A DNA stretch of 64,000 nt from Minisyncoccota bacterium (GCA_035548815.1 DASZSF010000005.1:115741-179740); one strand, 5' to 3'. Counted from the stretch's first letter, positions 11,706-51,457 are shown. The notes: generated by a model from the sequence alone, not told the origin. Numbers and translations: made by a program.

Positions 11706-11758
11706 AAAGAAAGCGCCGCTCGGGGAGAGCGGCGGGGAAGTTAAGGAAGGTGCAGGGT

Positions 11759-32229: not shown

Positions 32230-32292
32230 GAAGGTTTTAGTATCGGAGGTATGCGAGAGCATACCTCTTTAGAGTACTGCGAAGGCTTACCA

Positions 32293-32322: not shown

Positions 32323-32328
32323 CACGGC

Positions 32329-36923: not shown

Positions 36924-36924
36924 T

Positions 36925-37131: not shown

Positions 37132-37967
37132 AAAATATTTTAATCACCAAAGCATCTGGCGAACGTGAGGCATTTTCGGAGTCGAAATTGCGCCGCTCTC
37201 TACAGCGCGTGCACGCACCTTCAAATCTTGTAGACGAAATCGTCGCCCAGATCGAGACTGAATTGAGCGAAGGTATGAATACGTCGGAGATATATCGGAA
37301 AGCGTTTTCTCTGCTCAGGAAAAAAGCGAGACCTGTCGCGGCACGCTACAGTCTTAGAAGCGCACTAATGGAATTGGGACCGACCGGCAGGCCATTCGAG
37401 CGCTTTGTGGGTGAGCTTTTGAAGTCGGAGGGATTTGCCGTAGAAGTAGCGAAGATTGTGCCAGGAGTCTGCATCAAGCATGAAGTTGATGTCGTCGGCA
37501 CCAAAGGAGATCGACATATTATGGTGGAATGCAAATTTCATAATCAACCCGGATTGCGATCGGACGTAAAAATATCGCTCTATGTACAGGCTCGATTTGA
37601 GGATATCGAGCGCCAATGGAAGAAACAACTGCATCACGGAGAGAAATTCCACGAAGTATGGCTTGTCACTAATACGAAACTTACTTCTGATGCCACTGAT
37701 TATGCGAAATGCGTCGGGATGCATGCTATTGGCTGGAATTATCCTGCCACTGGCAGCTTGGAAGAGCTAATTGAGCAGCATAATCTCCATCCTTTGACAT
37801 GTCTAACGCGTCTGAATCGTTTACAGAAACAAGAACTTTTAAAACAAGGGCTCATTCTTTGCACTGATCTCCTAGAGGAACGAGACACTTTGCAGAAAAT
37901 TGTTGGAACTTCCGTGCGTGTAGATGAAATAGTGCAAGAGGTAAAGAAGCTACTAAAAATCGTATGA
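37128..37967 (+). CDS. ATP-cone domain fused to Mrr-like (restriction endonuclease-fold) nuclease domain
   Basis: N-terminal KASGEREAFSESKLRRSLQRV (ATP-cone); central ERFVGELLKSEGFAVEVAKIVPG...HEVDVVGTKGDRHIMVECKFH (Mrr_cat D-x-E-x-K). Confidence 0.65.
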   Translation: MKNILITKASGEREAFSESKLRRSLQRVHAPSNLVDEIVAQIETELSEGMNTSEIYRKAFSLLRKKARPVAARYSLRSALMELGPTGRPFERFVGELLKSEGFAVEVAKIVPGVCIKHEVDVVGTKGDRHIMVECKFHNQPGLRSDVKISLYVQARFEDIERQWKKQLHHGEKFHEVWLVTNTKLTSDATDYAKCVGMHAIGWNYPATGSLEELIEQHNLHPLTCLTRLNRLQKQELLKQGLILCTDLLEERDTLQKIVGTSVRVDEIVQEVKKLLKIV

Positions 37968-38226: not shown

Positions 38227-40428
38227 ATGAATCACGACGACCACAAAAATCACAAACACAGAGCCCATGGCATGGAGCAATACACCTGCCCGATGCATCC
38301 TGAAGTAATAAAACATGAGCCGGGCAAATGTCCGGGATGCGGCAAGGATTTGATTCCCAAGGAAAAGGGGGTAGGCGGTGAACATGCCGGGCACGATATG
38401 TCGAAAATGAGCCACATGGATCACGAGGCAGCGATGACGAACCCACAGATGGCGAAGGCAATGGAGGCCGATATGCGCCGCCGGTTCTGGATTTCATTCG
38501 TACTCTCGATACCCATTTTCTTGTATTCGCCCGTCGGCGTGAACCTGTTGAAGCTCCATCTGCCCGCGCCGATACCGGTCAGCTGGATACTCTTCATCCT
38601 CACGACACCGATAGTTTTCTGGACCGGCTCCATATTCATCACGGGCACGTACTACTCGCTCAAAGCCAAGAAGCTCAACATGGCGGTCTTGATCGCGACA
38701 GGCGTCCTTGCCGCGTACCTCTTTAGCGTGCTTCTCACGCTGATACAGCCTGCGAGCGAGACGTTCTACGAAGCCGCCGCGCTTCTTGTCACCTTCGTTC
38801 TTTTTGGGCATTGGATGGAGATGAAATCCCGCAAAGGCACATCGGACTCGCTCCGAGCCCTCTTTGATCTGGTACCGCCTCAGGCCCGAGTCATCCGCGA
38901 CGGAAAAGAGATGAGCATACCGAGCGCGGAAATAATCAAGGGGGACGTCGTCGTGTTGCGTCCTGGCGACAAAGTGCCGGTTGACGGAGAAATCATTGAG
39001 GGTGATTCATCGATCGATGAATCACTTGTGACCGGCGAATCCATCCCTGTCTCGAAGGCGAAAGGAGACAAAATAGTGGGAGGTTCGGTCAACCTCACCG
39101 GCGCGGTGCAATTCAAGGCGACAAAAGTCGGCGCGGATACTGTCTTGGCACAGATCATCAAGATGGTAGAGACTGCACAGAACTCCAAAGCGCCCGGGCA
39201 GCGTATCGCCGACAAGGCTGCCGCCATTCTGGTGGTGGTCGCCATTGGCTCCGGACTTGCCGCATTCTTTGGCTGGTATTTCTTCGGAGGTGCGGGACTT
39301 CTCGCCGCCCTTACCTTTGCCGTATCGACTGTTGTCATTGCATGCCCTGATGCATTAGGGCTCGCGACGCCAACAGCCGTTGCGGTGGGCACCGGCTTGG
39401 GTGCCAAGCACAACATTCTCATCAAAGATGCCGCAACGCTTGAAAATACTTCCAAACTCAATGCTATCGTGCTTGATAAGACAGGTACGCTCACCGAAGG
39501 GAAACCGAAAGTAACCGAGGTTGTTTCCACAAATTCTTATACCAAAGAGGACGTGCTTGCATACGCGTCTGCCGTTGAGCGGAACTCGAATCATCCCATT
39601 AGTCTCGCGATTATCAACGAAGCATCGAAGCGTAGCGTGTCCATCGAGAAGAAAGTCGAGAAATTTGAATCAATCGGCGGTCATGGCGTGCGTGCTGTTG
39701 CCGATGGCAAGACGGTCATTGCGGGCACTGAGCGCTTGATGAAGCAAAGCACTATTGATCTCTCACCACTCAAAAAGGAAATCGACCGTCTGCTTGGCAC
39801 AGGCAACACCATCAGCATCGTCGCGATTGACGGCAAGGTGGCGGGTGCCATCGGCGTCGCAGACACGGTACGTGAATCCGCACAGAAAACAGTATCCAAA
39901 CTAAAAGATATGGGTTTGGAAGTCGTCATGATCACTGGCGATCACGAACAGGTCGCTAAGGCAGTTGCAGGACAGCTTGGGATTGAACGCTACTTCGCAC
40001 AAGTGCTTCCTGAGGAGAAAGCGAAGTACGTGAAGAAGTTGCAAGACGAAGGTAAAAACGTAGCAATGGTCGGTGACGGCATCAACGATGCACCTGCCTT
40101 GGCGCAATCCGATATCGGCATCGCGATTGGTGCAGGCACCGACGTCGCCATCGAGACCGGCAACATCGTCCTGATGAAGTCCGATCCTTACGACATCGTG
40201 GCCGCCATCCGATTGTCTAAAGCAACTGTCACGAAGATGAAACAGAATCTATTTTGGGCTGCTATCTACAATGTTCTCGCAATTCCCGTGGCCGCAGGAG
40301 TTTTCTACTCAAGCTTGGGTTGGTCATTGCGACCTGAAATTTCCGCACTCCTCATGTCCGCTTCCTCAATCATCGTTGCTACAAACGCGGTTCTGCTCAA
40401 ACGGGTGGAGCCGCGCTTGAAGGAATGA
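38227..40428 (+). CDS. copA: heavy-metal (probably copper) P1B-type ATPase; TM6 motif CPD instead of CPC; N-terminal TRASH/YHS-like CPMHP...CPGCG
   Basis: TGES, IACPDALGLATP, DKTGTLT, GDGINDAPAL, 8 TM. Confidence 0.9.
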   Translation: MNHDDHKNHKHRAHGMEQYTCPMHPEVIKHEPGKCPGCGKDLIPKEKGVGGEHAGHDMSKMSHMDHEAAMTNPQMAKAMEADMRRRFWISFVLSIPIFLYSPVGVNLLKLHLPAPIPVSWILFILTTPIVFWTGSIFITGTYYSLKAKKLNMAVLIATGVLAAYLFSVLLTLIQPASETFYEAAALLVTFVLFGHWMEMKSRKGTSDSLRALFDLVPPQARVIRDGKEMSIPSAEIIKGDVVVLRPGDKVPVDGEIIEGDSSIDESLVTGESIPVSKAKGDKIVGGSVNLTGAVQFKATKVGADTVLAQIIKMVETAQNSKAPGQRIADKAAAILVVVAIGSGLAAFFGWYFFGGAGLLAALTFAVSTVVIACPDALGLATPTAVAVGTGLGAKHNILIKDAATLENTSKLNAIVLDKTGTLTEGKPKVTEVVSTNSYTKEDVLAYASAVERNSNHPISLAIINEASKRSVSIEKKVEKFESIGGHGVRAVADGKTVIAGTERLMKQSTIDLSPLKKEIDRLLGTGNTISIVAIDGKVAGAIGVADTVRESAQKTVSKLKDMGLEVVMITGDHEQVAKAVAGQLGIERYFAQVLPEEKAKYVKKLQDEGKNVAMVGDGINDAPALAQSDIGIAIGAGTDVAIETGNIVLMKSDPYDIVAAIRLSKATVTKMKQNLFWAAIYNVLAIPVAAGVFYSSLGWSLRPEISALLMSASSIIVATNAVLLKRVEPRLKE

Positions 40429-40488
40429 GTCGTACCCGGTCGAGGTACGATGAAGGTAGAGATTAAAAAAAAATAAACCAATCAACAT

Positions 40489-40707
40489 ATGAAATTCTCA
40501 AAATTAATGCATGTAGCCAGCGTTGTAGTGGGGTTTGCAGGCGTGTTCGTGTTCATCGTTACCGTTGTCGGGGGCGATGCTAACATCTTCGGTATTACAA
40601 AAATGGACGCACTCGCTTGTGCCGCCATTCTTATACTCATCGCAACTTGGACTCAGATCGCGACTATCCATCACATGATGCTTGAACGCAAAGGTGAACT
40701 TATCTAG
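40489..40707 (+). CDS. small membrane protein
   Basis: 72 aa, 2 TM. Confidence 0.35.
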   Translation: MKFSKLMHVASVVVGFAGVFVFIVTVVGGDANIFGITKMDALACAAILILIATWTQIATIHHMMLERKGELI

Positions 40708-40709
40708 CC

Positions 40710-41354
40710 ATGTGCTTCTCGGCCACAGCAAGCTTCGTAGCAGGTGGAACGTTGTCGGCAGCAGGGGCTCTTACTCTTACTCAAGCGAAAACTAAGAAAG
40801 AGCTCCCATTCGCCGCAATACCGCTCTTGTTTGGCGTGCAACAGACTATCGAAGGATTCGTGTGGCTCTCATTCGGCTCTGCATTCTGGAATGTCGCACT
40901 GACATACGCGTACTCGATGTTCTCGCACGTATTGTGGCCGATATTCGTTCCCATTTCAGTTTTGCTACTAGAGACAGACCCAACCCGAAAGAAGATCCTG
41001 CGATCCTTTTCGGTTATTGGTGCGGCGGTGGGACTATACCTTCTATACTTCATCATCGTTGATCCGGTGACGGCGCATGTCGTTAACCACAGCATCGCGT
41101 ATCACTCGCCGCACTTTTATGCTCTTCCGACAATGTTTCTTTATTTGATCGCGACATGTGGTAGCTGTCTTGCGTCGAGCCATAAAATCATCAAAGTGTT
41201 CGGGGTCGTGCTTCTTACTTCGTTCGCTATCGCCGCGTGGTTCTACACCGAAACATTCTTCTCGGTTTGGTGTTTCTTCGCAGCAATTCTTAGCGTTATC
41301 GTCTGCTGGTATTTCAGGAATAAAAATATGCAAAAATCTCACGTTTCGGTATAA
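40710..41354 (+). CDS. hypothetical 6-TM membrane protein
   Basis: 214 aa hydrophobic. Confidence 0.45.
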   Translation: MCFSATASFVAGGTLSAAGALTLTQAKTKKELPFAAIPLLFGVQQTIEGFVWLSFGSAFWNVALTYAYSMFSHVLWPIFVPISVLLLETDPTRKKILRSFSVIGAAVGLYLLYFIIVDPVTAHVVNHSIAYHSPHFYALPTMFLYLIATCGSCLASSHKIIKVFGVVLLTSFAIAAWFYTETFFSVWCFFAAILSVIVCWYFRNKNMQKSHVSV

Positions 41355-41361
41355 TCGATCT

Positions 41362-41772
41362 ATGCGAAGTTTTTACCCGTATCTAAAGATATTCATTGCG
41401 ACCGCGCTCCTCGCATTTCTTCTCTTTGGCTCTGCGGGAGCGATGCATTTTGGCATGAATATGGGAGCAGATGGCAAGATGGCTCCTTGCCCGTTCTCTG
41501 GCGAAGGGGCGATTTGCACCATGAATCCGCTTGAGCACATCGCCGCATGGCAGAATGCATTTACCACGACAGTCCAAAACGAGCGCGATATTGCTTTTCT
41601 CCTCATCGCCCTCACACTCCTTTTCACCGTCGGCTTTTGGCGAGAGCTTTTTACAAAACGAGACTTACGCTCGTTGCAGAAGTGGCATAGCGTCCTGCGC
41701 GAGGAGTTCAGTATCTTCGACCCGCTCCAAGAAGCGTTTTCAAACGGCATCCTAAATCCAAAAGTATTTTAG
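41362..41772 (+). CDS. hypothetical small membrane/exported protein with CPFSGEGAIC motif
   Basis: ATG 41362 in-frame within ORF 41158..41772. Confidence 0.4.
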   Translation: MRSFYPYLKIFIATALLAFLLFGSAGAMHFGMNMGADGKMAPCPFSGEGAICTMNPLEHIAAWQNAFTTTVQNERDIAFLLIALTLLFTVGFWRELFTKRDLRSLQKWHSVLREEFSIFDPLQEAFSNGILNPKVF

Positions 41773-41812
41773 GTAGGCACTCCTCGCCGCGTCATTCGTC
41801 GCGGATTATTCG

Positions 41813-42547
41813 GTGCTATCTAATCTACTCATGGAAACAACACAAGAATCTAAAAGTATCGTATCGACTCCTGTCGCTATTATCATCGCAGGAGTCATCA
41901 TCGCTGGCGCGGTCATCTTCGCGACAAAGCAACCCGCCGCTCAACCGGCCGCGGCTAACGCTCAACCGCAAGCCCCAGTCGCCGTCGATGTAAGTAAAGT
42001 TAAAACCGACAGCGAGCCGTTCATCGGCAACGCCAATGCGCCCGTAACCATGGCCTACTGGTACGATTACCAATGCCCATTCTGCCAGCGCAACGAAGAG
42101 GATACGATGCCGCAGATCGTTAAAAATTATGTCGATACCGGCAAGCTCAAGGTCGTGTTCAAGGATTACGAATTTCTTGGCCCCGACTCGCAAACGCTCG
42201 GACAGTTTTCCCGCGCCGTATGGGCCGTCGCTCCCGACAAATTCTATCAATGGCACAAAGCCATCTACGACAACCAGGGTACCGAGAATACCGGCTGGGC
42301 GACGCAGAACAAGATTCTCTCGATTACTACTAGTGTGCTTGGTGCCGGCGACACAGCAAAAGTGGCTGCGTTCGTGAAGAGCAATGGAGCCGAGTATCAG
42401 AAAGCAATGGATGCGGATAAAGCTGAAGGCACGGCCATGGGCATCAGCGGCACTCCCGGCGCAATCATCGGCAAGCAGTTAATCTCCGGAGCGCAGCCAT
42501 ACGCGGCATTCCAAGCGGCGATAGATGCGGCTCTGAAAAACCAGTAG
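41813..42547 (+). CDS. DsbA-family thiol:disulfide oxidoreductase (thioredoxin fold)
   Basis: N-terminal TM; CPFC active site in YDYQCPFCQRNEE. Confidence 0.75.
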   Translation: MLSNLLMETTQESKSIVSTPVAIIIAGVIIAGAVIFATKQPAAQPAAANAQPQAPVAVDVSKVKTDSEPFIGNANAPVTMAYWYDYQCPFCQRNEEDTMPQIVKNYVDTGKLKVVFKDYEFLGPDSQTLGQFSRAVWAVAPDKFYQWHKAIYDNQGTENTGWATQNKILSITTSVLGAGDTAKVAAFVKSNGAEYQKAMDADKAEGTAMGISGTPGAIIGKQLISGAQPYAAFQAAIDAALKNQ

Positions 42548-42551
42548 ACCT

Positions 42552-43214
42552 ATGCGTACTCAATATGTTCCTGTCCTCATCATCGCTCTCGCGGTGCTCG
42601 TAGGCGGATATCTTATCGCAAGATCGCATACGCCGGTCGCCAATGCGGAAGTTGCCGCAGAGTATGCAAAGATCCCGACAGCGAGCGGCAAAGCGCTCTT
42701 CATGGCGCAGAGCAAAAATCTGACAGAGAGTGTCGACCCAACCATTGTCGATCTCGATTCCCAGCTCATCACCTGCGCTCCGAATGTTGATAGCTTGCTC
42801 TCAACAAATCCTTCAATCGGCGGCAGTTGTGTTGCGGACGGCATGAATCTTGCTTCGACCACTGGTATGTATTTAGGCGGTCAGTGCTGCGGTCCCATGA
42901 AAGACCTTACGGAGTACAACGAAGAATTAAAAAATCTACAGCAGTACAAAGACATTCCCGACGTGCCGATGAATCCGTACAAGACATCGATTGGGATTGC
43001 GAAGAAATGGATCGACTACGACAACGCCACCATGCTCACACCGCAAGAACAAGTGGTCATGGATCAGGCGATGAAAACGTCGAAAGAAGGTCCGTGCTGC
43101 TGCAAGTGTTGGCACTACTTCGTCAATGAGGGCATCGCAAAAAAAATGATCAAAGATTACCACTACAGTGCGCAGCAAATCGCCGCGTATTGGGATACGT
43201 CGAGTATCTGTTAA
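42552..43214 (+). CDS. hypothetical secreted Cys-rich protein
   Basis: GGQCCGPMKD, EGPCCCKCWHY motifs; in copper cluster. Confidence 0.45.
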   Translation: MRTQYVPVLIIALAVLVGGYLIARSHTPVANAEVAAEYAKIPTASGKALFMAQSKNLTESVDPTIVDLDSQLITCAPNVDSLLSTNPSIGGSCVADGMNLASTTGMYLGGQCCGPMKDLTEYNEELKNLQQYKDIPDVPMNPYKTSIGIAKKWIDYDNATMLTPQEQVVMDQAMKTSKEGPCCCKCWHYFVNEGIAKKMIKDYHYSAQQIAAYWDTSSIC

Positions 43215-43226
43215 CTAAATAACATT

Positions 43227-43682
43227 ATGAAAACAATCATTATTACTACCGCAGCCGCGGTACTGCTTCTTGTTGGCGGCACGTTGTGGTCGAAGAGTAT
43301 CTCAAACAGCGACCCTAATGTCGTCGCCTCAGGCGGCATACATTGGCACCCGCAGCTCACGATCTATATCAAGGGCGTGAAGCAAGATATTCCAGCGAAC
43401 CTCGGCATCGGTCCGCAATTCGCGGGCACCAACGGTTACGATCCGCAAATGCAGATGGCGGCTGTACACACCCACGAGGATCTTCCGCTCATTCATCTCG
43501 AATTCATGAGCGGTCCCGTACGCAAAGAAGATGTCACGCTCGGCCAATTCTTCAAGATATGGGGCAAGGACATGCATTCACTTGGTACGAACATGCGCAT
43601 GATGGTCAACGGTAAAGCGAACACCGATTACGAGAATTACGTCATGCATGATGGAGATAAGATAGAATTGAATTATGACTAA
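43227..43682 (+). CDS. hypothetical membrane-anchored protein (His-containing, possible metal binding)
   Basis: IHWHP, HTHED; no family recognised. Confidence 0.4.
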   Translation: MKTIIITTAAAVLLLVGGTLWSKSISNSDPNVVASGGIHWHPQLTIYIKGVKQDIPANLGIGPQFAGTNGYDPQMQMAAVHTHEDLPLIHLEFMSGPVRKEDVTLGQFFKIWGKDMHSLGTNMRMMVNGKANTDYENYVMHDGDKIELNYD

Positions 43683-45255
43683 GAAATATCTCTACATTGC
43701 CATAATTGCTGTGGTAGTCATTGCCGGCATCGTTCTCTACCAAAAATCTCCGCTTGCCGTATCAGCGTATGTCAGTACCGATGTCGTCGGACTGTCGGAG
43801 GTAAAAGCGCCCGAGACTGTTGAGCTAAAGAATGGCGATACCTACACACTCACAGCAAGTTATGTCTCAAAAAACATCAACGGCATGAACTACCGAATGC
43901 TTGCGTACAATGGATCGATTCCTGGGCCTGTAATCAAAGTTCCGCAAGGAGCACGGGTAACCATCAACTTCAAGAACGATACCGACATGCCGACCCTGCT
44001 CCACTCGCACGGCGTGCGGATGGATAATCAATTTGACGGCTCGCAGACATCGCAAGACCCGATACCGCCGGGCGGCTCGTTCGCGTACACGCTCAAATTC
44101 CCAGACGCTGGTATGTACTGGTACCACCCGCATGTGCGCGAGGACCTTGAGCAGGAACTTGGTCTCTACGGCAACTTTCTGGTCGTGCCAACCGATGGCA
44201 ATTATTGGGACCCTGTAAATCAGGAGGTGCCGCTTACGCTCGATGACATTCTCATCCAGAACGGCAAGATTGATTTGAGCAAACAAGCAGCTGACCACAC
44301 GCTCATGGGCCGCTACGGCAATGTCATGCTCGTGAATGGGCAGACAGATTACTCACTTTCAGCAAAGAAAGGAGAAATCGTCCGCTTCTACATCACTAAC
44401 GTGGCAAACGCTCGGCCGTTCAACTTTGCGATTGAGAGCGCGAAACTCAAGCTGGTCGGTTCTGACGGCGGTGCGTATGAGCAAGACCAATGGAAGGACT
44501 CGGTAGTCATTGGGCCCTCGGAGCGCGCCATCGTCGAAGTCCTTTTTGACAAAAGCGGCACGTTCGCCATCGAAAACAAAACACCGGACCAAACCTATAC
44601 AATTGGCTCCGTAGCGGTGTCTAATGAGTCAGCGTCCGTCTCGTACGCAAAGGAGTTCTCCGTGCTCAAAACGCATACTGCAACAGTAACGAGCATCGAC
44701 CCTCTACGTTCCTACTTCGACAAAGCGCCTGACAAGAAAATTGCCATCTCAATCACCATGAACGGAGCACCCGCACAAATGCAGATGAGTATGGGAGGAG
44801 GCCACATGATGCCGGACGGCACCATGATGGGTGGCTCGATGATGAGCACGAGCCCCGATGGTATCGAATGGAACGACACAAACATGATGTCTGGTGGCAT
44901 GTCTACAACTGATAACGTGAAGTGGACAATCACCGATCAGGATACGGGGAAGGTGAACAGCGATATCAAGTGGACGTTCAAAAAGAATCAACCGGTGAAG
45001 ATTGAAATATACAATGACCCGCATTCAATGCACCCGATGCAGCATCCCATTCACTTCCACGGCCAGCAGTTCTTGGTACTCTCAGTCAACGGAGTAAAAC
45101 AAACAGACTTGGTGTGGAAAGACACCGTGCTCGTGCCGTCTGGTCAAACGGTCGACATTCTTCTATATCCGACAAATCCGGGCACATGGATGGCACACTG
45201 CCACATCGCCGAGCATTTGGAGGACGGGATGATGTTCACGTATACGGTGGAATAG
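43675..45255 (+). CDS. multicopper oxidase (CueO/laccase-like) with Met-rich insert
   Basis: Cu sites HSHG, HPHV, HPIHFHG, HCHIAEHLEDGMM; Met-rich MQMSMGGGHMMPDGTMMGGSMMS. Confidence 0.9.
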   Translation: MTKKYLYIAIIAVVVIAGIVLYQKSPLAVSAYVSTDVVGLSEVKAPETVELKNGDTYTLTASYVSKNINGMNYRMLAYNGSIPGPVIKVPQGARVTINFKNDTDMPTLLHSHGVRMDNQFDGSQTSQDPIPPGGSFAYTLKFPDAGMYWYHPHVREDLEQELGLYGNFLVVPTDGNYWDPVNQEVPLTLDDILIQNGKIDLSKQAADHTLMGRYGNVMLVNGQTDYSLSAKKGEIVRFYITNVANARPFNFAIESAKLKLVGSDGGAYEQDQWKDSVVIGPSERAIVEVLFDKSGTFAIENKTPDQTYTIGSVAVSNESASVSYAKEFSVLKTHTATVTSIDPLRSYFDKAPDKKIAISITMNGAPAQMQMSMGGGHMMPDGTMMGGSMMSTSPDGIEWNDTNMMSGGMSTTDNVKWTITDQDTGKVNSDIKWTFKKNQPVKIEIYNDPHSMHPMQHPIHFHGQQFLVLSVNGVKQTDLVWKDTVLVPSGQTVDILLYPTNPGTWMAHCHIAEHLEDGMMFTYTVE

Positions 45256-45580
45256 TCCTCCTATCCCACCTCAAGACCCTTAAGAGCCTCCTTGTTGGCA
45301 AACCCCCTTCGCAAATCCCTGGGGTCTGCTAGGGTGCAAAGCGATAGCATAAAGTGCTATCATGTTCGTGCACAACTAAATATAAGCCGACCTAACCCCT
45401 CAGGCCTCAAAACCTCAGGATATGGTCGCAAATCCCGCTAGAGATCAAAGGACTCCTGGTCAGAGTCACTCTAGCGGGTCGTATCGGGAAACCGGTACGG
45501 GCTCGGCCGAAAGGTCGGGTCGCGATGGCCAGGAGCCTTTTGATTAGGGCTCACTCCGTCGATAAAACCCGCTAGAATTC

Positions 45581-46516
45581 ATGGAAGAAATCGCCCCCAA
45601 GAAAAAGGGTAACGTTCTCAAATGGATAGGTATCGTGTTAGGCGTTTTGGTACTTCTCGCCATTATCAGCGCAGCTGGTTCCAGTTCCTCGTCTTCGGGC
45701 GGAAGTGCTACTGTGCCGTCCGATACGGGGATTTGTGGTACTAATCCGCAGGCGCTAAAAAAAGAAGCGTTTGTTCCAAATTATAAACAGCTCGCAAAGG
45801 ATCCGAGCGTATCTCAAGGCACCGTTGCCACGTTCACCGGTCAGATAGTGCAGATTGAGCAAAGCGGCAATGAAGGCATCATGCGTCTTTCCGTCACGAA
45901 AGAATCGTACGGTTGGAGTCTTAGCGATATCGTGTACGTAACGTATCATCAGGCGACGAATGCCGTCGACGGTGACGTTGTCTCCGTTACGGGGAAATTA
46001 ACCGGAAGCCAAACATATACGTCGCAGGCAAACTTTCAGATCACTATACCGAGCATTGATGTTTGCACCGTCGATACAAAACCGGTCGTATCAGCTCAAA
46101 CGACAACTCCCAAATCAAAGACGACCACACCGACTCCAAACACTTCTTCAAATCAGTCGAGCCAGCAAACTTACACTACTCCGAGTGGCGCGACAGTGAA
46201 CAATAGCGGTAATGTCGTCACGCCGCCGCCTGCGCCTCCGGCATCGTGGCACACGGTACAGACTTTCAGCGGCCAGACGCAAAAGAACACCGCTCCATTT
46301 ACCATTCAAGGGTCGCAGTGGCGAATTAGCTGGCAAGAAACGGGCGATGGTTACTTTGGTGCCAACGCGCAGAGTCCCGATGGAAGCAACTATTGCTCCA
46401 TCGCCAATCTGGTCGGTTCCGGCTCCGACTCTACGTACTGCTATGGCTCTGGGACGTATTACGTCTCGGTCAATACCGCAAATTCTTGGACGATCACCGT
46501 CGAAGACTACTACTAG
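45581..46516 (+). CDS. hypothetical membrane-anchored Thr/Pro-rich protein
   Basis: TM after Lys-rich N-terminus; low-complexity linker. Confidence 0.45.
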   Translation: MEEIAPKKKGNVLKWIGIVLGVLVLLAIISAAGSSSSSSGGSATVPSDTGICGTNPQALKKEAFVPNYKQLAKDPSVSQGTVATFTGQIVQIEQSGNEGIMRLSVTKESYGWSLSDIVYVTYHQATNAVDGDVVSVTGKLTGSQTYTSQANFQITIPSIDVCTVDTKPVVSAQTTTPKSKTTTPTPNTSSNQSSQQTYTTPSGATVNNSGNVVTPPPAPPASWHTVQTFSGQTQKNTAPFTIQGSQWRISWQETGDGYFGANAQSPDGSNYCSIANLVGSGSDSTYCYGSGTYYVSVNTANSWTITVEDYY

Positions 46517-48231
46517 TGTCCTCGCACTCGCTGTCGCATAAGTTGGCCGTACACCTGTAGATTGTATTGGCTCATTCGTCTCGCCTCATCCTCGGCTTCT
46601 TTGCGTCTCTGTTCGCGGATGACAGCCGTCTCGAGATCAATCTTGCGCTTGCGCCATTGCTCTTGTGCGGAGAACCATTCCTGATTCGGAATCCGTCCTT
46701 GCATCCACGCCTGTCTGACATCGGCGAGCCACAGATCATTCTTTCGCAATTCGTTTTCATCTGCGGTGCCTGATAACGCGGGCTGCGACGGGAATACAAA
46801 TCCCGGCTCTGTGATTTTCGACATTATCATGTGTGCCGCGATGGCGAACGCATCGACAAGATCGTCGTGTCGTTCCGCACCGAAGTTCACGAGTTGGAGA
46901 ATTAGCTCCTCGCACCCGTGCTCGGGGAAAACGATAATACCTTCTTGAATAAGGTGCGTGATGAGCGTCAATCGCTGGCGCTTATCCTGTCCATATACCT
47001 TGAATTCTTCGGCAGGAAAACCGTCATGCCGCAGGTCCTGCGGCATTGCTCTTTGATATTGCACGGATTCGATATAGAGCGAGGTCGGGTGGCCGTTCCC
47101 CAGATAGCGCGAAAGCATTTTGAGCTTCGCACGCGCCTCGGGGAATAGGAGGCGGTCGTTGAGCGGGTATTGGTGTACGTACGCTTTCCACGCGCCTTCT
47201 CTGTTGCGGAAAAGCGAAATTGAGACGGCGGCCGTGCAATCCGCCTTCGTATCTTCCGTGATGGCTAGATCGACGCCGGTTAAAGTGACGAAGAAATCAG
47301 GGTTGCCCTCAATCGAGGGCATGTCCGCGTAGCGTTGAATCCACTCGCGCTTCACGACCGATTCTTCGTCGTCGATGATTTTCAGAAGATACTCTCGCGA
47401 CCACGTCTGTATGCTGGGCACCGTTTTACGAAGGGCTTCAATCGCCGCCGTATCAGGGAATTTCGAGAACCATGCGATCTTGCCATCCTCGATCAACGGA
47501 TACGACTTGAAAATGCCATCAAGCTGATCCTCGTCGATATCACGCCGCAAGCGCATGATGATCCCGTCGTCATGCAATCGTGTGCCGATCACGACGACTC
47601 TGGTGCCAAGGTCGCCCATAGGCACGATGTCTCCAAAAAGTTGTGTGTACAGCTTGTCCCGATTTTCTTTTACCTTCACCGACGTGAGGTCTTCGAGGTC
47701 GTCGAACACCATCAGGTCCGGCCGGAATGAGCCGTGCTTGATGCCACGAATCGATGTGTCGAGCGACACGGCGGTGATACGCGCGTCGTACTTTGGAATG
47801 ACGATGGACGTCTGCCGCCACTCGTCGTCTGGCTCATCGAACGGTCCCAGTTCGCTTTTGAGCAATTCGTTGTCAGTGAGTTCATCGGTGATGTTTTTCA
47901 TCGTTTGTCGCGCCTGCTGCTGCGTCTTGCAGACGATGAGCACGAATTTTTTCTGCTGGACGCCGATGATCGACCAGATAGGAAGGCTCGTGGCCATGAT
48001 CGTGCTTTTGGCGCTGCCACGGAACGCCTCGACGACCAGAAATTTCTTACCTTGATCCTGTGTGAGCGCGAAGAGTTCCTTTTGAAACGGCGCGGTCTTG
48101 TACTTGGCGTGGTGGCCGAGAAATGCATGGAAGAAGAACAGATGACTACGCCGCGCCGCCTCCCGACGCAGCTTCTTGTTCGTTCTGATTTGCTCCAACT
48201 CCGTCGGAGCCTTTTGCTGAATCTTTTTCAT
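46513..48231 (-). CDS. phage terminase large subunit
   Basis: Walker A EAFRGSAKST, Walker B LMVFDDLED, C-terminal RNase-H-like nuclease acidic residues (DLAITEDT ... HDDLVDAF); ATG 48231 preferred over TTG 48285. Confidence 0.8.
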   Translation of the reverse strand: MKKIQQKAPTELEQIRTNKKLRREAARRSHLFFFHAFLGHHAKYKTAPFQKELFALTQDQGKKFLVVEAFRGSAKSTIMATSLPIWSIIGVQQKKFVLIVCKTQQQARQTMKNITDELTDNELLKSELGPFDEPDDEWRQTSIVIPKYDARITAVSLDTSIRGIKHGSFRPDLMVFDDLEDLTSVKVKENRDKLYTQLFGDIVPMGDLGTRVVVIGTRLHDDGIIMRLRRDIDEDQLDGIFKSYPLIEDGKIAWFSKFPDTAAIEALRKTVPSIQTWSREYLLKIIDDEESVVKREWIQRYADMPSIEGNPDFFVTLTGVDLAITEDTKADCTAAVSISLFRNREGAWKAYVHQYPLNDRLLFPEARAKLKMLSRYLGNGHPTSLYIESVQYQRAMPQDLRHDGFPAEEFKVYGQDKRQRLTLITHLIQEGIIVFPEHGCEELILQLVNFGAERHDDLVDAFAIAAHMIMSKITEPGFVFPSQPALSGTADENELRKNDLWLADVRQAWMQGRIPNQEWFSAQEQWRKRKIDLETAVIREQRRKEAEDEARRMSQYNLQVYGQLMRQRVRGH

Positions 48232-48649
48232 GGTTATTTTCTTTATCGTTAGTAACGCTGGTAATCTCCACTGTCTCGCTTTCAAGCATCGCGAGCCCGC
48301 GTTCTACGAGCGCATCCTGCTCAGCGTCCAACGCCTCACGCTCTTCTGGGGTACGCGCGGTGATCTCGAGTTTGTCTTTGAACTTCGGGTTGCGGTGCCG
48401 CAGCCAGAATTGGATCGATGGATAATGGCGCTCCAACATGAGGGAATACAGTTGATTCTCGCCGAGGTCGTTCAGCATCGCCTCGCCCTCGGCGAGCGCG
48501 TCTTCCATTGCTTTGCGGAATTCCTCGTCTTCATCGCGCCACTTGTACACGGTCGAGCGTGCGACGCCAACTTGCTCGACGGCGGCCTGAATATTCGGGA
48601 TCTTTTTCAGATGTTCGAGAAACAAGTCTTTGATGCGATCTTTTTTCAT
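48146..48649 (-). CDS. putative terminase small subunit / HTH DNA-binding protein
   Basis: MKKDRIKDLFLEHLKKIPNIQAAVEQVGVARSTVYKWRDEDEEF HTH; immediately upstream of large terminase, 3' overlap. Confidence 0.5.
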   Translation of the reverse strand: MKKDRIKDLFLEHLKKIPNIQAAVEQVGVARSTVYKWRDEDEEFRKAMEDALAEGEAMLNDLGENQLYSLMLERHYPSIQFWLRHRNPKFKDKLEITARTPEEREALDAEQDALVERGLAMLESETVEITSVTNDKENNHEKDSAKGSDGVGANQNEQEAASGGGAA

Positions 48650-49917
48650 ACACGTTTTGCCTTCAGCTTTGTAAGTGCTTCCCATCGGCGGATGGTGAGG
48701 TCCGCAAAAAGCGGTTCGAGCTCGACCACATATGCACGACGCTTCAACATTTCCGCACTTATCAACGTGCTGCCCGACCCCGAAAAGGAATCGAGAATTA
48801 TGTCGTTCACCTTCGTGCAACGCCTAATTGCTTTCTGGTGGAGTGTCGGGGGCTTCGCGGTTGCGTGCGTGTACTCTTTGCCCGCGAGGCGCTTCACAAG
48901 CCACACGTTGAAGTGGTCGATGATGTCTTCGATGAGGCGATTGCCGGTTCCGATTTCCTTGTTCAGTACCTCGTTGAGGTTCGTGATGTTTTTAGTGAGA
49001 TGAGGTTTGCCGCGCGTCGCGTAGATGCAAGGCTCGTATGCTTTTGAAAACGCGACGCCCGGCGTCGGGTTTTGCCCGTTCTTGATCCACAGGCATACGC
49101 GACGATTTGTGAGCCCCAGTTCGGCGAAGAGTCCCTGCACGAGGCCGATCTGTGATTCATCGTTCCAATAGAAAACATGGGCGTCGTCTTTTGTGACGGC
49201 TAGAGCCGCTTCCATGCTTTGTTTCAAGAATGCGCGGTACTCGTCCGGCGTGCGCGTGTCGTTGACCTCGCCACCGTAATTCGCGCGACCGCCGACGCCG
49301 CGCGAATAATCGATCGAGAGATTATAAATCGGGTCGGAATAAACCATGGAGGCACGCTCGGAGCCGAAGAGTTTTTTGAGTACCGACGGGTCAGTCGCGT
49401 CCCCAACTGCGAGACGGTGAGGTCCGAGTTGATATACCTCACCGACCTTGCTTTTCGGTTTCTTGATGCGAGCGATTTCTTTTTCAACATCGAATCCGTC
49501 ATCTTGCGTCTCCAAAGTGCTGTCCCATGCCGCCGCGATGACCGCATCATCGACGCCGATATCCATGAGGAGTTTTGCGTCGAATGCTTTGAGCTTCTCG
49601 AAATCCCACGATCCGCCGAGAGCGTTAGACGCGACGAGGTAACGGCGCGCCTCGGCTTCGGAGAGCTGGCGCGATGGAATACGGACCGGAATCTTCTCCT
49701 CGCCGCGCCCGAGGAGTTGGAGCGCCTTGATGCGCTGGTGGCCCGCAAGGATGCGGCCATCGCTATTTATTGCGGGAATTTCCGCGAGATTGAAGCGCTC
49801 GATATTGCGCTTCAAGTCTTCGAGCTGCTTGGATGAAATTCTCCTCGGATTTTCATCATGGGGTACGAGATCGTTTACGGTGCGCTCGACCGTGGACCAG
49901 AATAATTTTTTAGCCAT
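48646..49917 (-). CDS. ParB-like nuclease domain fused to N6A/N4C DNA methyltransferase
   Basis: ParB N-domain (RISSKQLEDLKRNIERFNL...GHQRIKAL); MTase motif IV SDPIYN and motif I ILDSFSGSGST. Confidence 0.8.
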   Translation of the reverse strand: MAKKLFWSTVERTVNDLVPHDENPRRISSKQLEDLKRNIERFNLAEIPAINSDGRILAGHQRIKALQLLGRGEEKIPVRIPSRQLSEAEARRYLVASNALGGSWDFEKLKAFDAKLLMDIGVDDAVIAAAWDSTLETQDDGFDVEKEIARIKKPKSKVGEVYQLGPHRLAVGDATDPSVLKKLFGSERASMVYSDPIYNLSIDYSRGVGGRANYGGEVNDTRTPDEYRAFLKQSMEAALAVTKDDAHVFYWNDESQIGLVQGLFAELGLTNRRVCLWIKNGQNPTPGVAFSKAYEPCIYATRGKPHLTKNITNLNEVLNKEIGTGNRLIEDIIDHFNVWLVKRLAGKEYTHATAKPPTLHQKAIRRCTKVNDIILDSFSGSGSTLISAEMLKRRAYVVELEPLFADLTIRRWEALTKLKAKRV

Positions 49918-50008
49918 AGCGGGTATGTGCTAGCGAATAAGCAGGAAGGCAGTACTCCCTCCTACTTACATTGGACGTAGGGTGAACCCGATTTTGGTTG
50001 CGGCCTGT

Positions 50009-50287
50009 TTAATTCAATACGTACGAGGGAAGCTCGTATGCGTACATCTCGTATCGCTCGCGCACGCCAGCCTTCCTCAGCAGGTCCTTTATGCGGTTTT
50101 TCAGGATAGCGCGAACGTAGGTTTTGAGGGACGCCCCATTCTTTCCCTTGAAGTTGATCTTGCGGGTGAGAAGAGTGAGGGCAAGTTCGTCTTTGATGTC
50201 GTCCGCGGTCATCTCCGGAATCCACGTATGTTTCGCGATTCGGTCGATCAGAGGGAGAAATTCAAGACACAGTTCGTTATTCGACAT
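50009..50287 (-). CDS. small sigma-factor-like / phage transcriptional regulator (hypothetical)
   Basis: 92 aa, helical, weak sigma region-4-like. Confidence 0.35.
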   Translation of the reverse strand: MSNNELCLEFLPLIDRIAKHTWIPEMTADDIKDELALTLLTRKINFKGKNGASLKTYVRAILKNRIKDLLRKAGVRERYEMYAYELPSYVLN

Positions 50288-50386: not shown

Positions 50387-50593
50387 ATGAATGAATCAGC
50401 AACGAGTTCCGGTGAAGGCAGTCCGGCGGTCGAACAGGCGGAAAAGCAAGTGCTGGGAAACCAGAACTACCAGAAGGTAGAAGTCGTACATCGTTTTGCC
50501 GATTCTCATCCGTGGGTCCATCCAGCCCTGTTGGGTGGAATCGCGTTGATCGCTGCGGCTGCAATCATCTTCGTTGTTCGTCGTTCACGCTAG
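50387..50593 (+). CDS. small membrane protein
   Basis: 68 aa, C-terminal TM. Confidence 0.3.
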   Translation: MNESATSSGEGSPAVEQAEKQVLGNQNYQKVEVVHRFADSHPWVHPALLGGIALIAAAAIIFVVRRSR

Positions 50594-51188
50594 TAATAAC
50601 ATGAATCACAACCAACTTTTGCAAAGAGGCCTTCTCCTCGAATATATAACTCTCGCCTGGAACGTAGTTGGCACGGCCGTCGCGGTTTGGGCTGGGATAC
50701 AGGCGGCCTCGCTTTCTTTGTTCGGTTTCGGCATTGATTCAGCCATAGAGATTTTTGCTTCGATAGTTGTCGTGTGGCAACTGAAGGCTATCAACAAAAA
50801 CAACGAGAGATTCGCCCTAAAGCTCATTGGAGGTGCATTCATGGCCCTCTCTCTTTATCTATTGGTGCGGGCGCTTCAGGTTCTCGTTGCAGGAGTGCAT
50901 CCGCAGCCTTCCGTGCTCGGAGCTGCCTGGTTGTTTATAACTGCAATCGCGATGCTCTTGCTGGCCTACGGAAAGCGCAAAATTGGGAAGCAGATACCAA
51001 ATAGGACGCTCATGGAAGAAGCGATCGTGACGTTGATAGACGGCCTGCTTGCTTTAGCACTTCTTGTCGGGGTACTGCTCGATATGTATTTCGGTTTTTG
51101 GTGGGCAGATCCGGTTGCAAGTCTGATTCTTGTATTCTTGGGTGCTCGCGAGGCACTCCATATTTTCAACGGAGAGCATAATCATTAG
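50574..51188 (+). CDS. cation diffusion facilitator family protein, TM domain only
   Basis: DSAIEIFASIVVVW metal-site motif; about 200 aa, lacks cytoplasmic CTD. Confidence 0.6.
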   Translation: MFVVHASNNMNHNQLLQRGLLLEYITLAWNVVGTAVAVWAGIQAASLSLFGFGIDSAIEIFASIVVVWQLKAINKNNERFALKLIGGAFMALSLYLLVRALQVLVAGVHPQPSVLGAAWLFITAIAMLLLAYGKRKIGKQIPNRTLMEEAIVTLIDGLLALALLVGVLLDMYFGFWWADPVASLILVFLGAREALHIFNGEHNH

Positions 51189-51457
51189 GGTCTAATGGCC
51201 TCTCAGAAAACGGACACATGAATGTCCGATTCTTGTGTCTGATTTGTCTACTTTTCAAAAAATAACCCCTTGCTGTCGAGGGCTCGACTCTCCACCGCAA
51301 AAGCAGCTAAAATATCCTTACGGTTACTAGACGATGGGGTACTAACTGCTGACTGCCCGCTGAGATTTTTAAAGAGTGTTTCTATTGACAAAATAGAAAA
51401 TAGTAAGTATTGTTTATTTGATTGGTACAAGTTTGGAATCAACTGCAGGAGTGTGCG

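What the first reader, a model, noticed from the sequence alone, without database searches (positions are those of the whole stretch)
46513..50287. Orphan phage packaging and methylation module without structural genes
Small and large terminase genes, a ParB-nuclease::DNA-methyltransferase fusion and a sigma-like regulator are co-oriented with overlapping ends. No portal, capsid or tail genes follow; the next gene is convergent. Terminase-plus-ParB-MTase cassettes without virion genes are characteristic of phage satellites/PICI-like elements or decayed prophages. They may hijack helper-phage capsids. Together with the tRNA-Ser island and copper cargo, this could be one composite element of roughly 18 kb.
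Basis: inference. Interest (0 to 1): 0.6.

Follow-up and report, generated by a model that had tools for sequence, protein, structure and literature searches.

The report
Capsid-less terminase island at tRNA-Ser
The four genes are the conserved core of a roughly 19-kb mobile island inserted next to a tRNA-Ser gene; islands of this kind (DNA methylase, small and large terminase, a serine recombinase, swappable cargo, never a capsid gene) turn up in genomes across the ultra-small Patescibacteria and probably travel in the capsids of other phages.

Summary
On the minus strand at 46513-50287 lie a sigma-70 region-2-only gene, a ParB-N::N6/N4 DNA methyltransferase, TerS and TerL. TerL is followed by a convergent gene and no virion genes.

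This is not a decayed prophage. In 80 other species' genomes, mostly named Patescibacteria, MTase-TerS-TerL is adjacent and co-oriented wherever enough DNA is present. In a rough TerL tree these loci form one clade with no portal. The sister clade consists of true phages (TerL-portal-protease-HK97 capsid).

A large serine recombinase lies downstream of TerL in 60 loci, always on the same strand. Variable cargo sits between them: copper genes here, restriction-modification or metal-uptake genes elsewhere. The first tRNA beyond the recombinase always points its 3' end at the element (23/23 loci, mostly tRNA-Ser). The window matches this layout: tRNA-Ser 32142-32229, recombinase 34176-35543, copper cargo, then the cassette.

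Its right end is unproven.

Best reading: a new, phylum-wide family of capsid-less, satellite-like integrative elements that carry their own complete terminase. Encapsidation, excision and a helper phage are inferred, not shown. A LOOT RNA is a recurrent part of these elements.

The parts
32142..32229 (+). tRNA-Ser(GGA); probable integration target and left boundary. Its 3' end faces the element.
   Evidence: ARAGORN and Rfam. The same tRNA-Ser -> DUF4238 -> p314 -> recombinase layout is in L167 and L169. In 23/23 related loci the first tRNA beyond TerL/recombinase has this orientation.
32236..32246 (+). 11-nt motif TTTAGTATCGG, 7 nt after the tRNA; candidate left junction sequence.
   Evidence: TTTAKTATCGG (K = G or T; G in the window and L169, T in L167) lies just after the tRNA-Ser (7 to 9 nt) in the window, L167 and L169, although the tRNA isoacceptor and outer flanks differ. 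It occurs once in the window; one occurrence is not beyond chance on its own.
32329..33297 (+). DUF4238 protein (candidate defence gene); terminal module of the island.
   Evidence: Pfam DUF4238 9e-34; PADLOC DUF4238-Pers 6e-10. 97% aa identity to L167 and 83% to L169, in the same position.
33227..34171 (+). 314-aa protein of unknown function, convergent with the recombinase; terminal module.
   Evidence: No family hit. Homologues at 96% and 71% sit in the same position in L167 and L169. Together with DUF4238 it is 90% identical at DNA level to L167, while the adjacent recombinase is only 67% identical.
34176..35543 (-). Large serine recombinase; the element's integrase.
   Evidence: Pfam Resolvase + Recombinase + Zn_ribbon_recom; CcrB/XisF-like; catalytic motif YARKST present. 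91%, 85% and 77% identical to the recombinases downstream of TerL in L165, L164 and L005. A recombinase of this family lies downstream of TerL in 60 loci, on the same strand in 60/60.
35596..36123 (-). AAA_28 P-loop NTPase; cargo or accessory gene.
   Evidence: Pfam AAA_28 2e-34. No homologue in the other loci.
36651..37131 (+). CsoR-like metal-sensing repressor (36651-36923) and a His-rich 68-aa membrane protein (36925-37131); start of the copper cargo.
   Evidence: ORFs. The CsoR-like protein has homologues in 5 other element loci. The CsoR assignment is from reading the sequence and from cluster c14, not from a family scan.
37128..37967 (+). ATP-cone + Mrr-like nuclease-fold protein; cargo.
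   Evidence: Pfam ATP-cone and Mrr_cat.
38227..45255 (+). Copper cargo: P-type ATPase with HMBD (38227-40428), DUF6629 (40710-41354), DsbA-like thioredoxin (41813-42547), two unknown genes (42552-43682), multicopper oxidase (43675-45255).
   Evidence: Pfam. CopA homologues occur next to 9 other elements.
45389..45521 (+). LOOT RNA, a structured RNA 60 nt upstream of the 311-aa gene.
   Evidence: Rfam RF03000, 73.3 bits against a gathering score of 46.4. The same RNA was found once in each of 25 sources out of 96 searched (the window and 24 related loci), always in the element zone. 97% of cells are paired and 20/24 pairs have compensatory changes.
45581..46516 (+). 311-aa membrane-anchored protein, convergent on TerL; recurrent accessory gene.
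   Evidence: phrog_26645 9e-23. It is in the same BLAST cluster as proteins in 14 loci next to TerL or the recombinase. A cluster member (L082) has Pfam tRNA_anti-like 3.6e-22; the window protein itself has no Pfam hit.
46513..48198 (-). Large terminase (TerL), ATPase plus nuclease.
   Evidence: phrog_38 8e-71. Motifs conserved. 865 homologues, many on contigs of 0.1-0.75 Mb. Under 27% identical to any deposited phage.
48146..48649 (-). Small terminase (TerS) with an HTH.
   Evidence: phrog_4044 1.1e-11 and six further TerS/terminase PHROGs. A homologue was found directly upstream of TerL in 80/80 genome loci.
48646..49917 (-). ParB-N::N6/N4 DNA methyltransferase.
   Evidence: A homologue is upstream of TerS in all 77 loci with enough DNA, often followed by a second MTase of about 255 aa.
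50009..50287 (-). 92-aa protein with sigma-70 region 2 only; probable regulator of the cassette.
   Evidence: Pfam Sigma70_r2. A gene of the same size and domain sits in the same position in L003 and L312-L314. More distant elements have unrelated small genes here.
50387..51188 (+). 68-aa membrane protein and CDF cation-efflux protein, in a variable slot between the cassette and the conserved block. Membership of the element is uncertain.
   Evidence: Pfam Cation_efflux 5e-14. Relatives carry different genes in this position.
51206..51360 (-). Conserved non-coding block holding an invariant 17-mer GTAGACAAATCRGACAC, a second direct copy and one inverted copy of ATCGGACA; candidate right-end cis site (att, pac or operator).
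   Evidence: 77-85% identical to L003, L164, L165 and L166, where coding DNA is about 70-75% identical. Homology to relatives stops beyond it. Also found in metagenome contigs L170 and L239 next to the cassette. No covariation and no Rfam hit.

Best explanation
**What it is.** The cassette is the conserved core of an integrative mobile element of about 19 kb, roughly 32.23-51.36 kb in the window. It sits against the 3' end of tRNA-Ser(GGA).

**Family layout** (written in cassette orientation):
- a small regulator (here a sigma region-2 protein);
- a ParB-N::MTase, often with one or two further orphan methylases;
- TerS, then TerL;
- a cargo slot, often holding a LOOT RNA and a small membrane protein;
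- a large serine recombinase;
- sometimes a terminal module (here the 314-aa gene and DUF4238);
- a tRNA gene pointing at the element.

**Proposed mechanism.**
1. The serine recombinase integrates and excises the element at tRNA 3' ends. The tRNA association is shown by layout; catalysis is inferred.
2. When a tailed phage infects the cell, the element's TerS binds a site on the element and its TerL cuts the DNA. TerL then pumps it into procapsids made by that phage, docking on the phage portal (inferred).
3. The methylases pre-methylate the DNA so that it survives restriction in the next cell (inferred).
4. The cargo slot carries adaptive genes. Here that is a copper-resistance set (CsoR-like repressor, P-type ATPase, DsbA-like protein, multicopper oxidase). 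Elsewhere it is restriction-modification, metal uptake, or ABC transporter and two-component genes (shown).

In short, it works like a phage satellite that brings its own complete terminase but no capsid.
For: **A maintained module, not debris**
- TerS is next to TerL in 80/80 other genome loci. ParB-MTase is present in 77/77 loci with enough upstream DNA. All genes are co-oriented.
- The loci come from 80 different species-representative genomes. Several lie inside contigs of 0.3-0.7 Mb or complete chromosomes.
- ATPase and nuclease motif columns are invariant.

**Capsid-less as a lineage trait**
- In an NJ TerL tree of 152 sequences, all loci with MTase/TerS/recombinase form one clade containing no portal.
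- The sister clade has TerL followed by portal+MuF, protease and HK97 major head protein.
- Structural proteins of that clade find nothing in 1.49 Mb of the window plus genome loci.
- The upstream 10 kb in relatives holds host genes such as purine synthesis, gatCA and PilM.

**Integrative and mobile**
- The recombinase is downstream of TerL in 60 loci, on the same strand in 60/60, and directly adjacent in 23. The median gap is 1 kb and the largest 8.3 kb.
- The closest relatives (TerL 68-76% identical) have the same layout but different flanks and different cargo.
- The nearest downstream tRNA faces the element in 23/23 loci (Ser 13, Gln 6, Glu 3).
- Repeats of the tRNA-Ser 3' end, 13-15 nt long, lie upstream of the cassette in L064 and L049. 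L057 has a tRNA-like remnant.
- The window shows mosaicism: DUF4238+p314 are 90% identical at DNA level to L167, but the neighbouring recombinase only 67%.

**Not a known defence system.** TerL and TerS have no PADLOC hit.

**Contig sizes fit the picture.** The sister phages' portal family occurs almost entirely on phage-sized contigs (mostly under 42 kb, one of 84 kb). The element's TerL occurs on contigs up to 750 kb.
Against: - There is no direct evidence of excision, circular forms or encapsidation. No contig had circular overlap. The one apparent case, L033, is a toxin-gene repeat.
- No att repeat and no second tRNA fragment were found in the window. The right boundary rests only on a conserved block that occurs in the closest relatives alone.
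- No helper phage is identified, and the host of the sister phage clade is unknown.
- No replication gene was recognised, so how packaging substrate is made is open.
- Only +/-10 kb around each TerL was examined. Virion genes elsewhere in these genomes cannot be excluded.
- Serine recombinases targeting tRNA genes are unusual (my knowledge). No tyrosine recombinase was seen, but two element genes have unknown function.
- TerL and recombinase divergence are uncorrelated (rho 0.05). Modules are therefore exchanged, and some TerL-recombinase pairings may be neighbours rather than one unit.
- The tree is neighbour-joining without support values.
- About 20 record titles name non-Patescibacteria taxa; I could not check them.
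Confidence: 0.6

Rival explanations
1. Decayed prophage. The cassette is what remains of a tailed prophage whose structural genes were deleted, and the copper genes are unrelated neighbours.
For: - The genes are of phage origin. The trio ParB-MTase/TerS/TerL also exists in a true phage that has a portal (L156).
- No att repeats were found in the window.
Against: - The same portal-less arrangement with intact genes occurs in 80 other species and forms one clade. Independent decay would not stop at the same point each time.
- Catalytic motifs are invariant.
- The recombinase, the cargo slot and the tRNA orientation are all regular.
Confidence: 0.04
2. Dispersed phage-like system. The cassette is the packaging module of a GTA-like or split prophage whose head and tail genes lie elsewhere in the chromosome, so no helper phage is needed.
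For: - Only +/-10 kb around each TerL and 64 kb of this genome were seen.
- Gene transfer agents with split loci are known (my knowledge).
- The module is widespread and old, as a domesticated system would be.
Against: - Flanks and cargo differ between close relatives, and the unit is bounded by a recombinase and a tRNA. That pattern fits an island rather than a fixed chromosomal locus.
- No structural-gene homologue of the nearest phage clade occurs in 1.49 Mb.
- The portal family of that clade does not occur on long chromosomal contigs.
- Patescibacterial genomes of about 1 Mb leave little room for a hidden 15-kb structural cluster (my knowledge).
Confidence: 0.12
3. Defence or interference island. 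The terminase pair and methylases mainly serve the host by sabotaging the packaging of incoming phages or by modifying DNA. The island spreads by other routes such as natural transformation, which Patescibacteria are thought to use.
For: - Cargo is rich in restriction-modification and candidate defence genes: type I and III R-M, SNF2+MTase pairs, DUF4238-Pers.
- Known satellites interfere with helper packaging (PMC10690885; bioRxiv 10.1101/2024.04.22.590561, title and abstract listed).
Against: - TerL and TerS match no PADLOC model.
- A full, catalytically intact TerS+TerL pair kept with an integrase for this long is more simply explained by self-packaging.
- Interference and satellite transfer are not mutually exclusive.
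Confidence: 0.12
4. Helper-independent use of the terminase. TerS/TerL process or move the element's DNA without any capsid, for example by cutting replicated concatemers or exporting DNA.
For: - No helper phage is known.
- The minimal elements (4-5 genes, about 5-6 kb, e.g. L025) have no recognisable replication or transfer gene.
Against: - No precedent is known to me for a capsid-independent terminase.
- The proteins keep the ordinary phage TerL architecture, and their sister clade consists of ordinary phages.
Confidence: 0.05

Closest known systems
Capsid-forming PICIs and the Streptomyces satellites MulchRoom/MiniFlayer
   Same: These satellites carry both TerS and TerL and so package their own DNA (PMC10690885). 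MiniFlayer's TerL was a weak hit (23% identity) to the window TerL.
   Different: They also encode portal, major capsid protein, protease or scaffold, and head-tail connectors, and take only tails from the helper. None of those genes is present here. The integrase type and the ParB-MTase also differ.
SaPI-type PICIs
   Same: Integrated islands of 10-20 kb that are mobilised by helper phages. Some redirect packaging with their own TerS. They carry adaptive or defence cargo and have a regulatory region at one end (PMC10690885, PMC10085698).
   Different: PICIs rely on the helper's TerL. They typically use tyrosine integrases and carry a primase-replicase module and capsid-size or interference genes. 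No such genes were recognised here. The host phyla differ as well.
PICMIs (phage-inducible chromosomal minimalist islands of Vibrionaceae)
   Same: Very small gene content and no capsid-remodelling genes (PMC10803314, abstract listed). From my own recollection of that paper, and not checked here, PICMIs also encode a TerS and depend on the helper for replication. The smallest members of the present family are likewise 4-5 genes.
   Different: From my recollection, PICMIs lack TerL, a ParB-MTase and a serine recombinase. They are confined to Vibrionaceae.
PLEs of Vibrio cholerae and serine-recombinase VEIMEs
   Same: Satellites or virion-encapsidated islands that integrate with a large serine recombinase (PMC6002521, PMC9618062).
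   Different: No TerL is listed among the shared VEIME gene modules, which do include TerS homologues (PMC9618062); the absence of TerL from PLEs is from my own knowledge. PLEs integrate in integron repeats and carry their own replication initiator (also my knowledge). There is no sequence relationship to the present family.
Tailed phages of the sister TerL clade (IMG/VR contigs L096, L101, L119 and others)
   Same: Closest TerL relatives outside the element clade, 31-40% identical. Some carry an MTase next to the terminase.
   Different: They have a different TerS cluster. Portal+MuF, protease and HK97 capsid follow TerL. No serine recombinase is adjacent. Their contigs are phage-sized.

Membership tests
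Intact or defective tailed prophage | Portal, major capsid and tail genes contiguous with the terminase | tested here: not met
   There are none in the window or in +/-10 kb of 80 related loci. The nearest phages have them directly after TerL.
Phage large terminase (TerL) | N-terminal Walker A/B ATPase plus C-terminal RNase H-like nuclease with conserved acidic residues | tested here: met
   phrog_38 8e-71 over residues 31-547 of the 590-aa ORF. Motif columns are invariant in 24 sequences. Pfam Terminase_6C falls 0.1 bit below its cut-off. Enzymatic activity was not tested.
Phage small terminase (TerS) | Small HTH DNA-binding protein encoded immediately upstream of TerL | tested here: met
   phrog_4044 1.1e-11 plus six further TerS/terminase PHROGs. 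The position is conserved in 80/80 loci. Pfam Sf6_terminase is below its cut-off. Oligomeric ring structure was not tested.
Large serine recombinase | Resolvase catalytic domain with active-site serine, recombinase domain and zinc ribbon | tested here: met
   All three Pfam domains are above their cut-offs. The YARKST motif can be read in the sequence.
Phage satellite (general) | Lacks virion genes of its own but has a means of directing its packaging | tested here: met
   TerS and TerL are present and no virion genes were found.
Phage satellite (general) | Induced by, and packaged in particles of, a helper phage | not testable with these tools
   No virion-fraction data, no helper identified and no circular contigs.
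Phage satellite (general) | Site-specific integration with defined att sites | tested here: inconclusive
   The family shows a regular tRNA orientation (23/23) and 13-15-nt tRNA-Ser repeats in L049 and L064. No repeat was found in the window itself.
PICI (SaPI type) | Primase/replicase module with its own origin | tested here: not met
   No primase, helicase or Rep domain was found in any window element gene scanned or in the recurring gene clusters. A novel replication protein among the unknown genes cannot be excluded.
PICI (SaPI type) | Uses the helper's TerL (element encodes TerS, Rpp or cos only) and has a tyrosine integrase | tested here: not met
   The element encodes its own TerL and a serine recombinase.
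Capsid-forming PICI / MulchRoom-type satellite | Own major capsid, portal, protease and connector genes together with TerS/TerL | tested here: not met
   TerS/TerL are present, but no capsid module was found in any clade member.
Gene transfer agent | Chromosomal head-tail gene cluster, vertically inherited at a fixed locus, without integrase | tested here: not met
   There is no head-tail cluster within reach. The element has a recombinase, a tRNA boundary, and variable flanks and cargo. The rest of the genomes was not examined.
Known anti-phage defence systems (PADLOC) | Match of the core proteins to a defence-system model | tested here: not met
   TerL, TerS, the sigma-like protein and the recombinase have no hit. 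Only generic MTase models and DUF4238-Pers hit.
LOOT RNA (Rfam RF03000) | Score above the family's gathering threshold, with a conserved structure | tested here: met
   73.3 bits against 46.4. In 25 copies, 97% of cells are paired and 20/24 pairs show compensatory changes.

The most novel reading that the evidence does not exclude
Patescibacteria carry an old, phylum-wide lineage of capsid-less satellites. These elements keep a complete TerS/TerL motor, integrate at tRNA genes with a serine recombinase, and have a LOOT-RNA-led accessory gene and a swappable cargo slot. If this is right, they would be a main vehicle for exchange of metal-resistance and defence genes among these ultra-small bacteria. 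They would also be the first satellite type that replaces the helper's whole terminase while using the helper's capsid.
Probability: 0.4. Interest if true: 0.85.

Novelty: new variant of a known kind. Interest (0 to 1): 0.72.

Why it matters
Very little is known about phages and mobile elements of Patescibacteria. [quoted passage not shown]

A recognisable island type found in at least 423 of the scanned species-representative genomes would help in several ways:
- It gives a handle on how these reduced-genome bacteria trade copper resistance, restriction-modification and other adaptive genes.
- It points indirectly to the phages they must depend on.
- It explains many 'orphan terminase' viral calls in Patescibacteria bins and in IMG/VR.

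For satellite biology, the family fills an empty combination: a full terminase with no capsid. It raises a testable question, namely how a foreign TerL docks on a helper portal.

It also gives the orphan LOOT RNA a genomic home, and it suggests a serine-recombinase family that targets tRNA genes, which could be useful as an integration tool.

Tried and rejected
**att and junction searches**
- Direct and inverted repeats across 31.4-54 kb, and targeted searches between the two ends, found nothing beyond chance.
- A second copy of the tRNA-Ser 3' end, allowing up to 3 mismatches, was not found.
- The 11-mer next to the tRNA has no inverted copy in the window.
- DNA downstream of the recombinase stop codon was aligned between the window and three relatives. 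Homology ends at the stop codon, so no junction could be read.

**Circular or excised forms**
- Only L033 has terminal overlap (44 nt), and that is a repeat between RHS-type toxin cassettes.

**The conserved 17-mer**
- Scans of metagenome and viral contigs returned mostly chance matches (120 and 22 stretches). Only L170, L181 and L239 carry the full block. L181 has no cassette genes and remains unexplained.
- Treated as an RNA, the right-end block shows no covariation and has no Rfam match.

**Corrected assumptions**
- I first assumed the ~440-aa gene after TerL in relatives was a portal. It is the serine recombinase.
- A portal protein (P0173) and a close TerL relative (P0004) both lie on contigs of 16,556 nt. 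I checked, and they are different contigs.

**Other negative results**
- TerL/recombinase co-divergence showed essentially no correlation (rho 0.05), so the modules reshuffle.
- Seven literature searches bearing on the element family (six term searches, plus the LOOT RNA search) and six papers read turned up no description of this element type. The library lacks most subscription journals, so absence is not proof.

Full report
**1. Observation**

The window is part of NCBI assembly GCA_964570245.1, contig CAZMXM010000007.1 (283 kb). Four co-oriented genes lie on the minus strand at 46513-50287:
- a 92-aa protein with sigma-70 region 2 only (50009-50287);
- a 423-aa ParB-like N-domain fused to an N6/N4 DNA methyltransferase (48646-49917);
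- a 167-aa HTH protein matching small-terminase PHROGs (48146-48649);
- a 561-aa large terminase (46513-48198).

MTase/TerS and TerS/TerL overlap by 4 nt and 53 nt. TerL ends against a convergent 311-aa gene.

I found no portal, capsid or tail gene in the window. The evidence is Pfam or PHROG scans of 40 ORFs (39 of 150 aa or more, plus the sigma-like gene). In addition, tblastn with the structural proteins of the nearest phages found nothing.

**2. The cassette is conserved, not debris**

The window TerL is under 27% identical to any deposited phage. It nevertheless has 865 homologues in metagenome-derived proteins, many on contigs of 0.1-0.75 Mb.

A scan of one genome per species found at least 423 genomes encoding a relative. 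I fetched 80 of them (L005-L084). Most record titles name Patescibacteria lineages: Saccharibacteria, Paceibacteria, Woese-, Peri-, Dojka-, Levy-, Kuenenbacteria and WWE3. About 20 carry other names that I could not check.

Every one of the 80 has a TerS homologue directly upstream of TerL. All 77 with enough upstream DNA have a ParB-type MTase upstream of TerS. About half have a second MTase of about 255 aa in between. The Walker A/B and nuclease columns are invariant in a 24-sequence alignment.

**3. Capsid-less as a lineage**

I clustered the ORFs of all loci. The ~440-aa gene that most often follows TerL is not a portal. It is a large serine recombinase.

A scan of IMG/VR returned 79 more loci. 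In a neighbour-joining TerL tree of 152 sequences (rough, without support values), all loci with MTase/TerS/recombinase form one clade in which no member has a portal. That clade includes all the genome loci and about 17 IMG/VR contigs.

Its sister clade has TerL 31-40% identical to the window. There TerL is followed by portal fused to a Mu-F domain, a head protease and an HK97-type major head protein, so these are ordinary tailed phages. That portal family occurs on phage-sized contigs (mostly under 42 kb, one of 84 kb) and never on chromosome-sized ones.

Loss of the virion module therefore appears to have happened once, and the remainder has been maintained since. That rules out independent prophage decay.

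**4. An integrative island with a cargo slot**

The recombinase lies downstream of TerL in 60 clade loci. It is on the same strand in 60/60 and directly adjacent in 23. The median gap is 1 kb and the largest 8.3 kb.

The closest relatives (TerL 68-76% identical: L003, L164, L165, L166, L312) share the layout but have different flanks. Where the recombinase is in reach, the genes between TerL and the recombinase also differ:
- L164: a MutH-like nuclease, a C5 methylase and an IS element;
- L165: Zn/Mn uptake genes and Fur.

In L166, ABC transporter and two-component genes follow TerL, but no recombinase lies within the fetched DNA.

Across the family, recurring cargo includes type I and III restriction-modification, SNF2+MTase pairs, DGR parts and copper genes. 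CopA occurs at 9 loci and CsoR at 5.

In the window the recombinase is at 34176-35543 on the cassette strand. It is 91% and 85% identical to those of L165 and L164. The 11 kb between it and TerL holds the copper set.

**5. Left boundary: a tRNA gene**

Homologues of the 314-aa gene that abuts the recombinase led to L167 and L169. Both show tRNA-Ser -> DUF4238 -> 314-aa gene -> recombinase (on the opposite strand) -> cargo, exactly as in the window. Their outer flanks are unrelated: GroEL here, S20/RuvA/Mur ligase in one, RuvX/tRNA-binding protein in the other. An 11-nt motif follows the tRNA in all three.

In 60 clade loci scanned with ARAGORN, 23 have a tRNA beyond TerL or the recombinase. 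In all 23 the nearest one lies on the strand opposite to the cassette, so its 3' end faces the element. Thirteen are tRNA-Ser, six Gln and three Glu.

Repeats of the tRNA-Ser 3' end lie upstream of the cassette in L064 (13 nt) and L049 (15 nt). L057 has a 24-nt repeat beside a tRNA-like remnant.

The window shows the tRNA layout but no repeat. Serine recombinases need little sequence identity at their sites (my knowledge), so this is not contradictory. It does leave the crossover point unknown.

**6. Right side**

At 51206-51360, between a CDF efflux gene and a 195-aa gene, lies a non-coding block. It is 77-85% identical to L003, L164, L165 and L166, which is more conserved than the coding DNA. 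It holds an invariant 17-mer plus one further direct copy and one inverted copy of ATCGGACA.

Homology to relatives ends beyond the block. It shows no covariation and no Rfam match. It looks like a protein-binding DNA site (att, pac or operator), and I take it as the provisional right end.

The genes between the block and the cassette differ among relatives. The block is absent from L312-L314.

**7. Mechanism**

What is shown:
- the gene set and its conservation;
- monophyly of the portal-less loci (in a rough tree);
- the link to the recombinase;
- the tRNA orientation;
- cargo variability and mosaicism.

What is inferred:
- the recombinase moves the island in and out of tRNA genes;
- TerS and TerL package the island's own DNA into procapsids supplied by an infecting phage;
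- the methylases protect the DNA on arrival in a new cell.

The alternatives are a dispersed GTA-like system, a defence island that spreads by other means, and a capsid-independent use of the terminase. None is excluded, and they are weighted in the report sections. TerL and TerS match no known defence model.

**8. Comparison with known systems**

- SaPI-type PICIs and VEIMEs carry at most a TerS (PMC10690885, PMC9618062). From my recollection, not checked here, the same holds for PICMIs (PMC10803314).
- cf-PICIs and MulchRoom/MiniFlayer carry TerS and TerL, but together with their own capsid genes (PMC10690885).
- PLEs and one VEIME module use serine recombinases (PMC6002521, PMC9618062).

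The combination seen here matches none of them: a full terminase, no capsid, a ParB-MTase, a serine recombinase and a tRNA target. I found no description of it in the paper library. That library lacks most subscription journals.

I file it as a new variant of a known kind (phage satellite or integrative island), not as a member of any named family.

**9. Side finding: LOOT RNA**

Rfam's LOOT RNA lies at 45389-45521, 60 nt upstream of the 311-aa membrane-protein gene. A model built from seven copies found one copy in each of 25 sources out of 96 searched (the window and 24 related loci). The copies always lie in the element zone. They usually sit 55-130 nt upstream of a small gene that often encodes an N-terminally membrane-anchored protein, and lie either next to TerL or flanking the recombinase. 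The structure is strongly supported: 97% of cells are paired and 20/24 pairs show compensatory changes.

**10. Verdict**

It is corrected in the details: not PICI-like, not decayed.
- That this is an integrative island family is well supported; I put it at about 0.85.
- The helper-capsid mechanism is plausible but untested, at about 0.5.
- The stated confidence of 0.6 is for the combined statement.

Noticed in passing
window 45389-45521 (+); also L003 12830-12943, L165 12728-12860, L062, L072, L075, L077 and 18 more loci: LOOT RNA (Rfam RF03000, function unknown) is a recurrent component of this element family. One copy was found in each of 25 sources out of 96 searched (the window and 24 related loci). 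It usually lies 55-130 nt upstream of a small gene that often encodes a membrane-anchored protein, and is placed next to TerL or the recombinase. Covariation is strong, and G-U pairs fit an RNA read towards that gene.
   Followed up: yes
window 51206-51360: A non-coding block more conserved than the neighbouring genes, with an invariant 17-mer and three copies of ATCGGACA (two direct, one inverted). It also occurs in metagenome contig L181 (3390-3406), which has none of the cassette genes. That case is unexplained.
   Followed up: partly
L035, L044, L047, L050, L088 (around 10001-13000 in each): Some elements, mostly in Peribacteria-named genomes, carry two TerL genes in tandem (for example 537 and 520 aa).
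   Followed up: no
L004 17486-18951; L312 3753-5139; L030; L064 15159-16511: Parts of diversity-generating retroelements (reverse transcriptase plus bAvd) sit within a few kb of several elements. They may be cargo or close neighbours.
   Followed up: no
window 32328-34171 versus L167 9045-10888: The DUF4238 gene and the 314-aa gene are 90% identical at DNA level to a MAG (REEB120). That MAG's recombinase next door is only 67% identical, and the one TerL found in it (on another contig) is only 54% identical in protein. This suggests recent exchange of this two-gene module between elements.
   Followed up: partly
window 36651-37131: A CsoR-like repressor and a His-rich 68-aa membrane protein precede the copper ATPase. 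The copper cargo therefore looks like a self-contained regulated unit, and similar CsoR/CopA sets sit beside other elements (L018, L027, L041, L054, L079).
   Followed up: partly
L033 1-349 and 16443-17330: RHS/YD-type polymorphic toxin cassettes flank this element. A 44-nt repeat between them mimics a circular contig.
   Followed up: yes
window 53768-58828 (+): A 1686-aa protein with C1q and glycine-rich domains lies just outside the island. It has no PHROG match and is probably a cell-surface protein.
   Followed up: partly
window 920-4030 (+): A 1036-aa protein gives a full-length match (2.9e-183) to phrog_7301, a phage protein family of unknown function. It is far from the island and was not examined further.
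   Followed up: no
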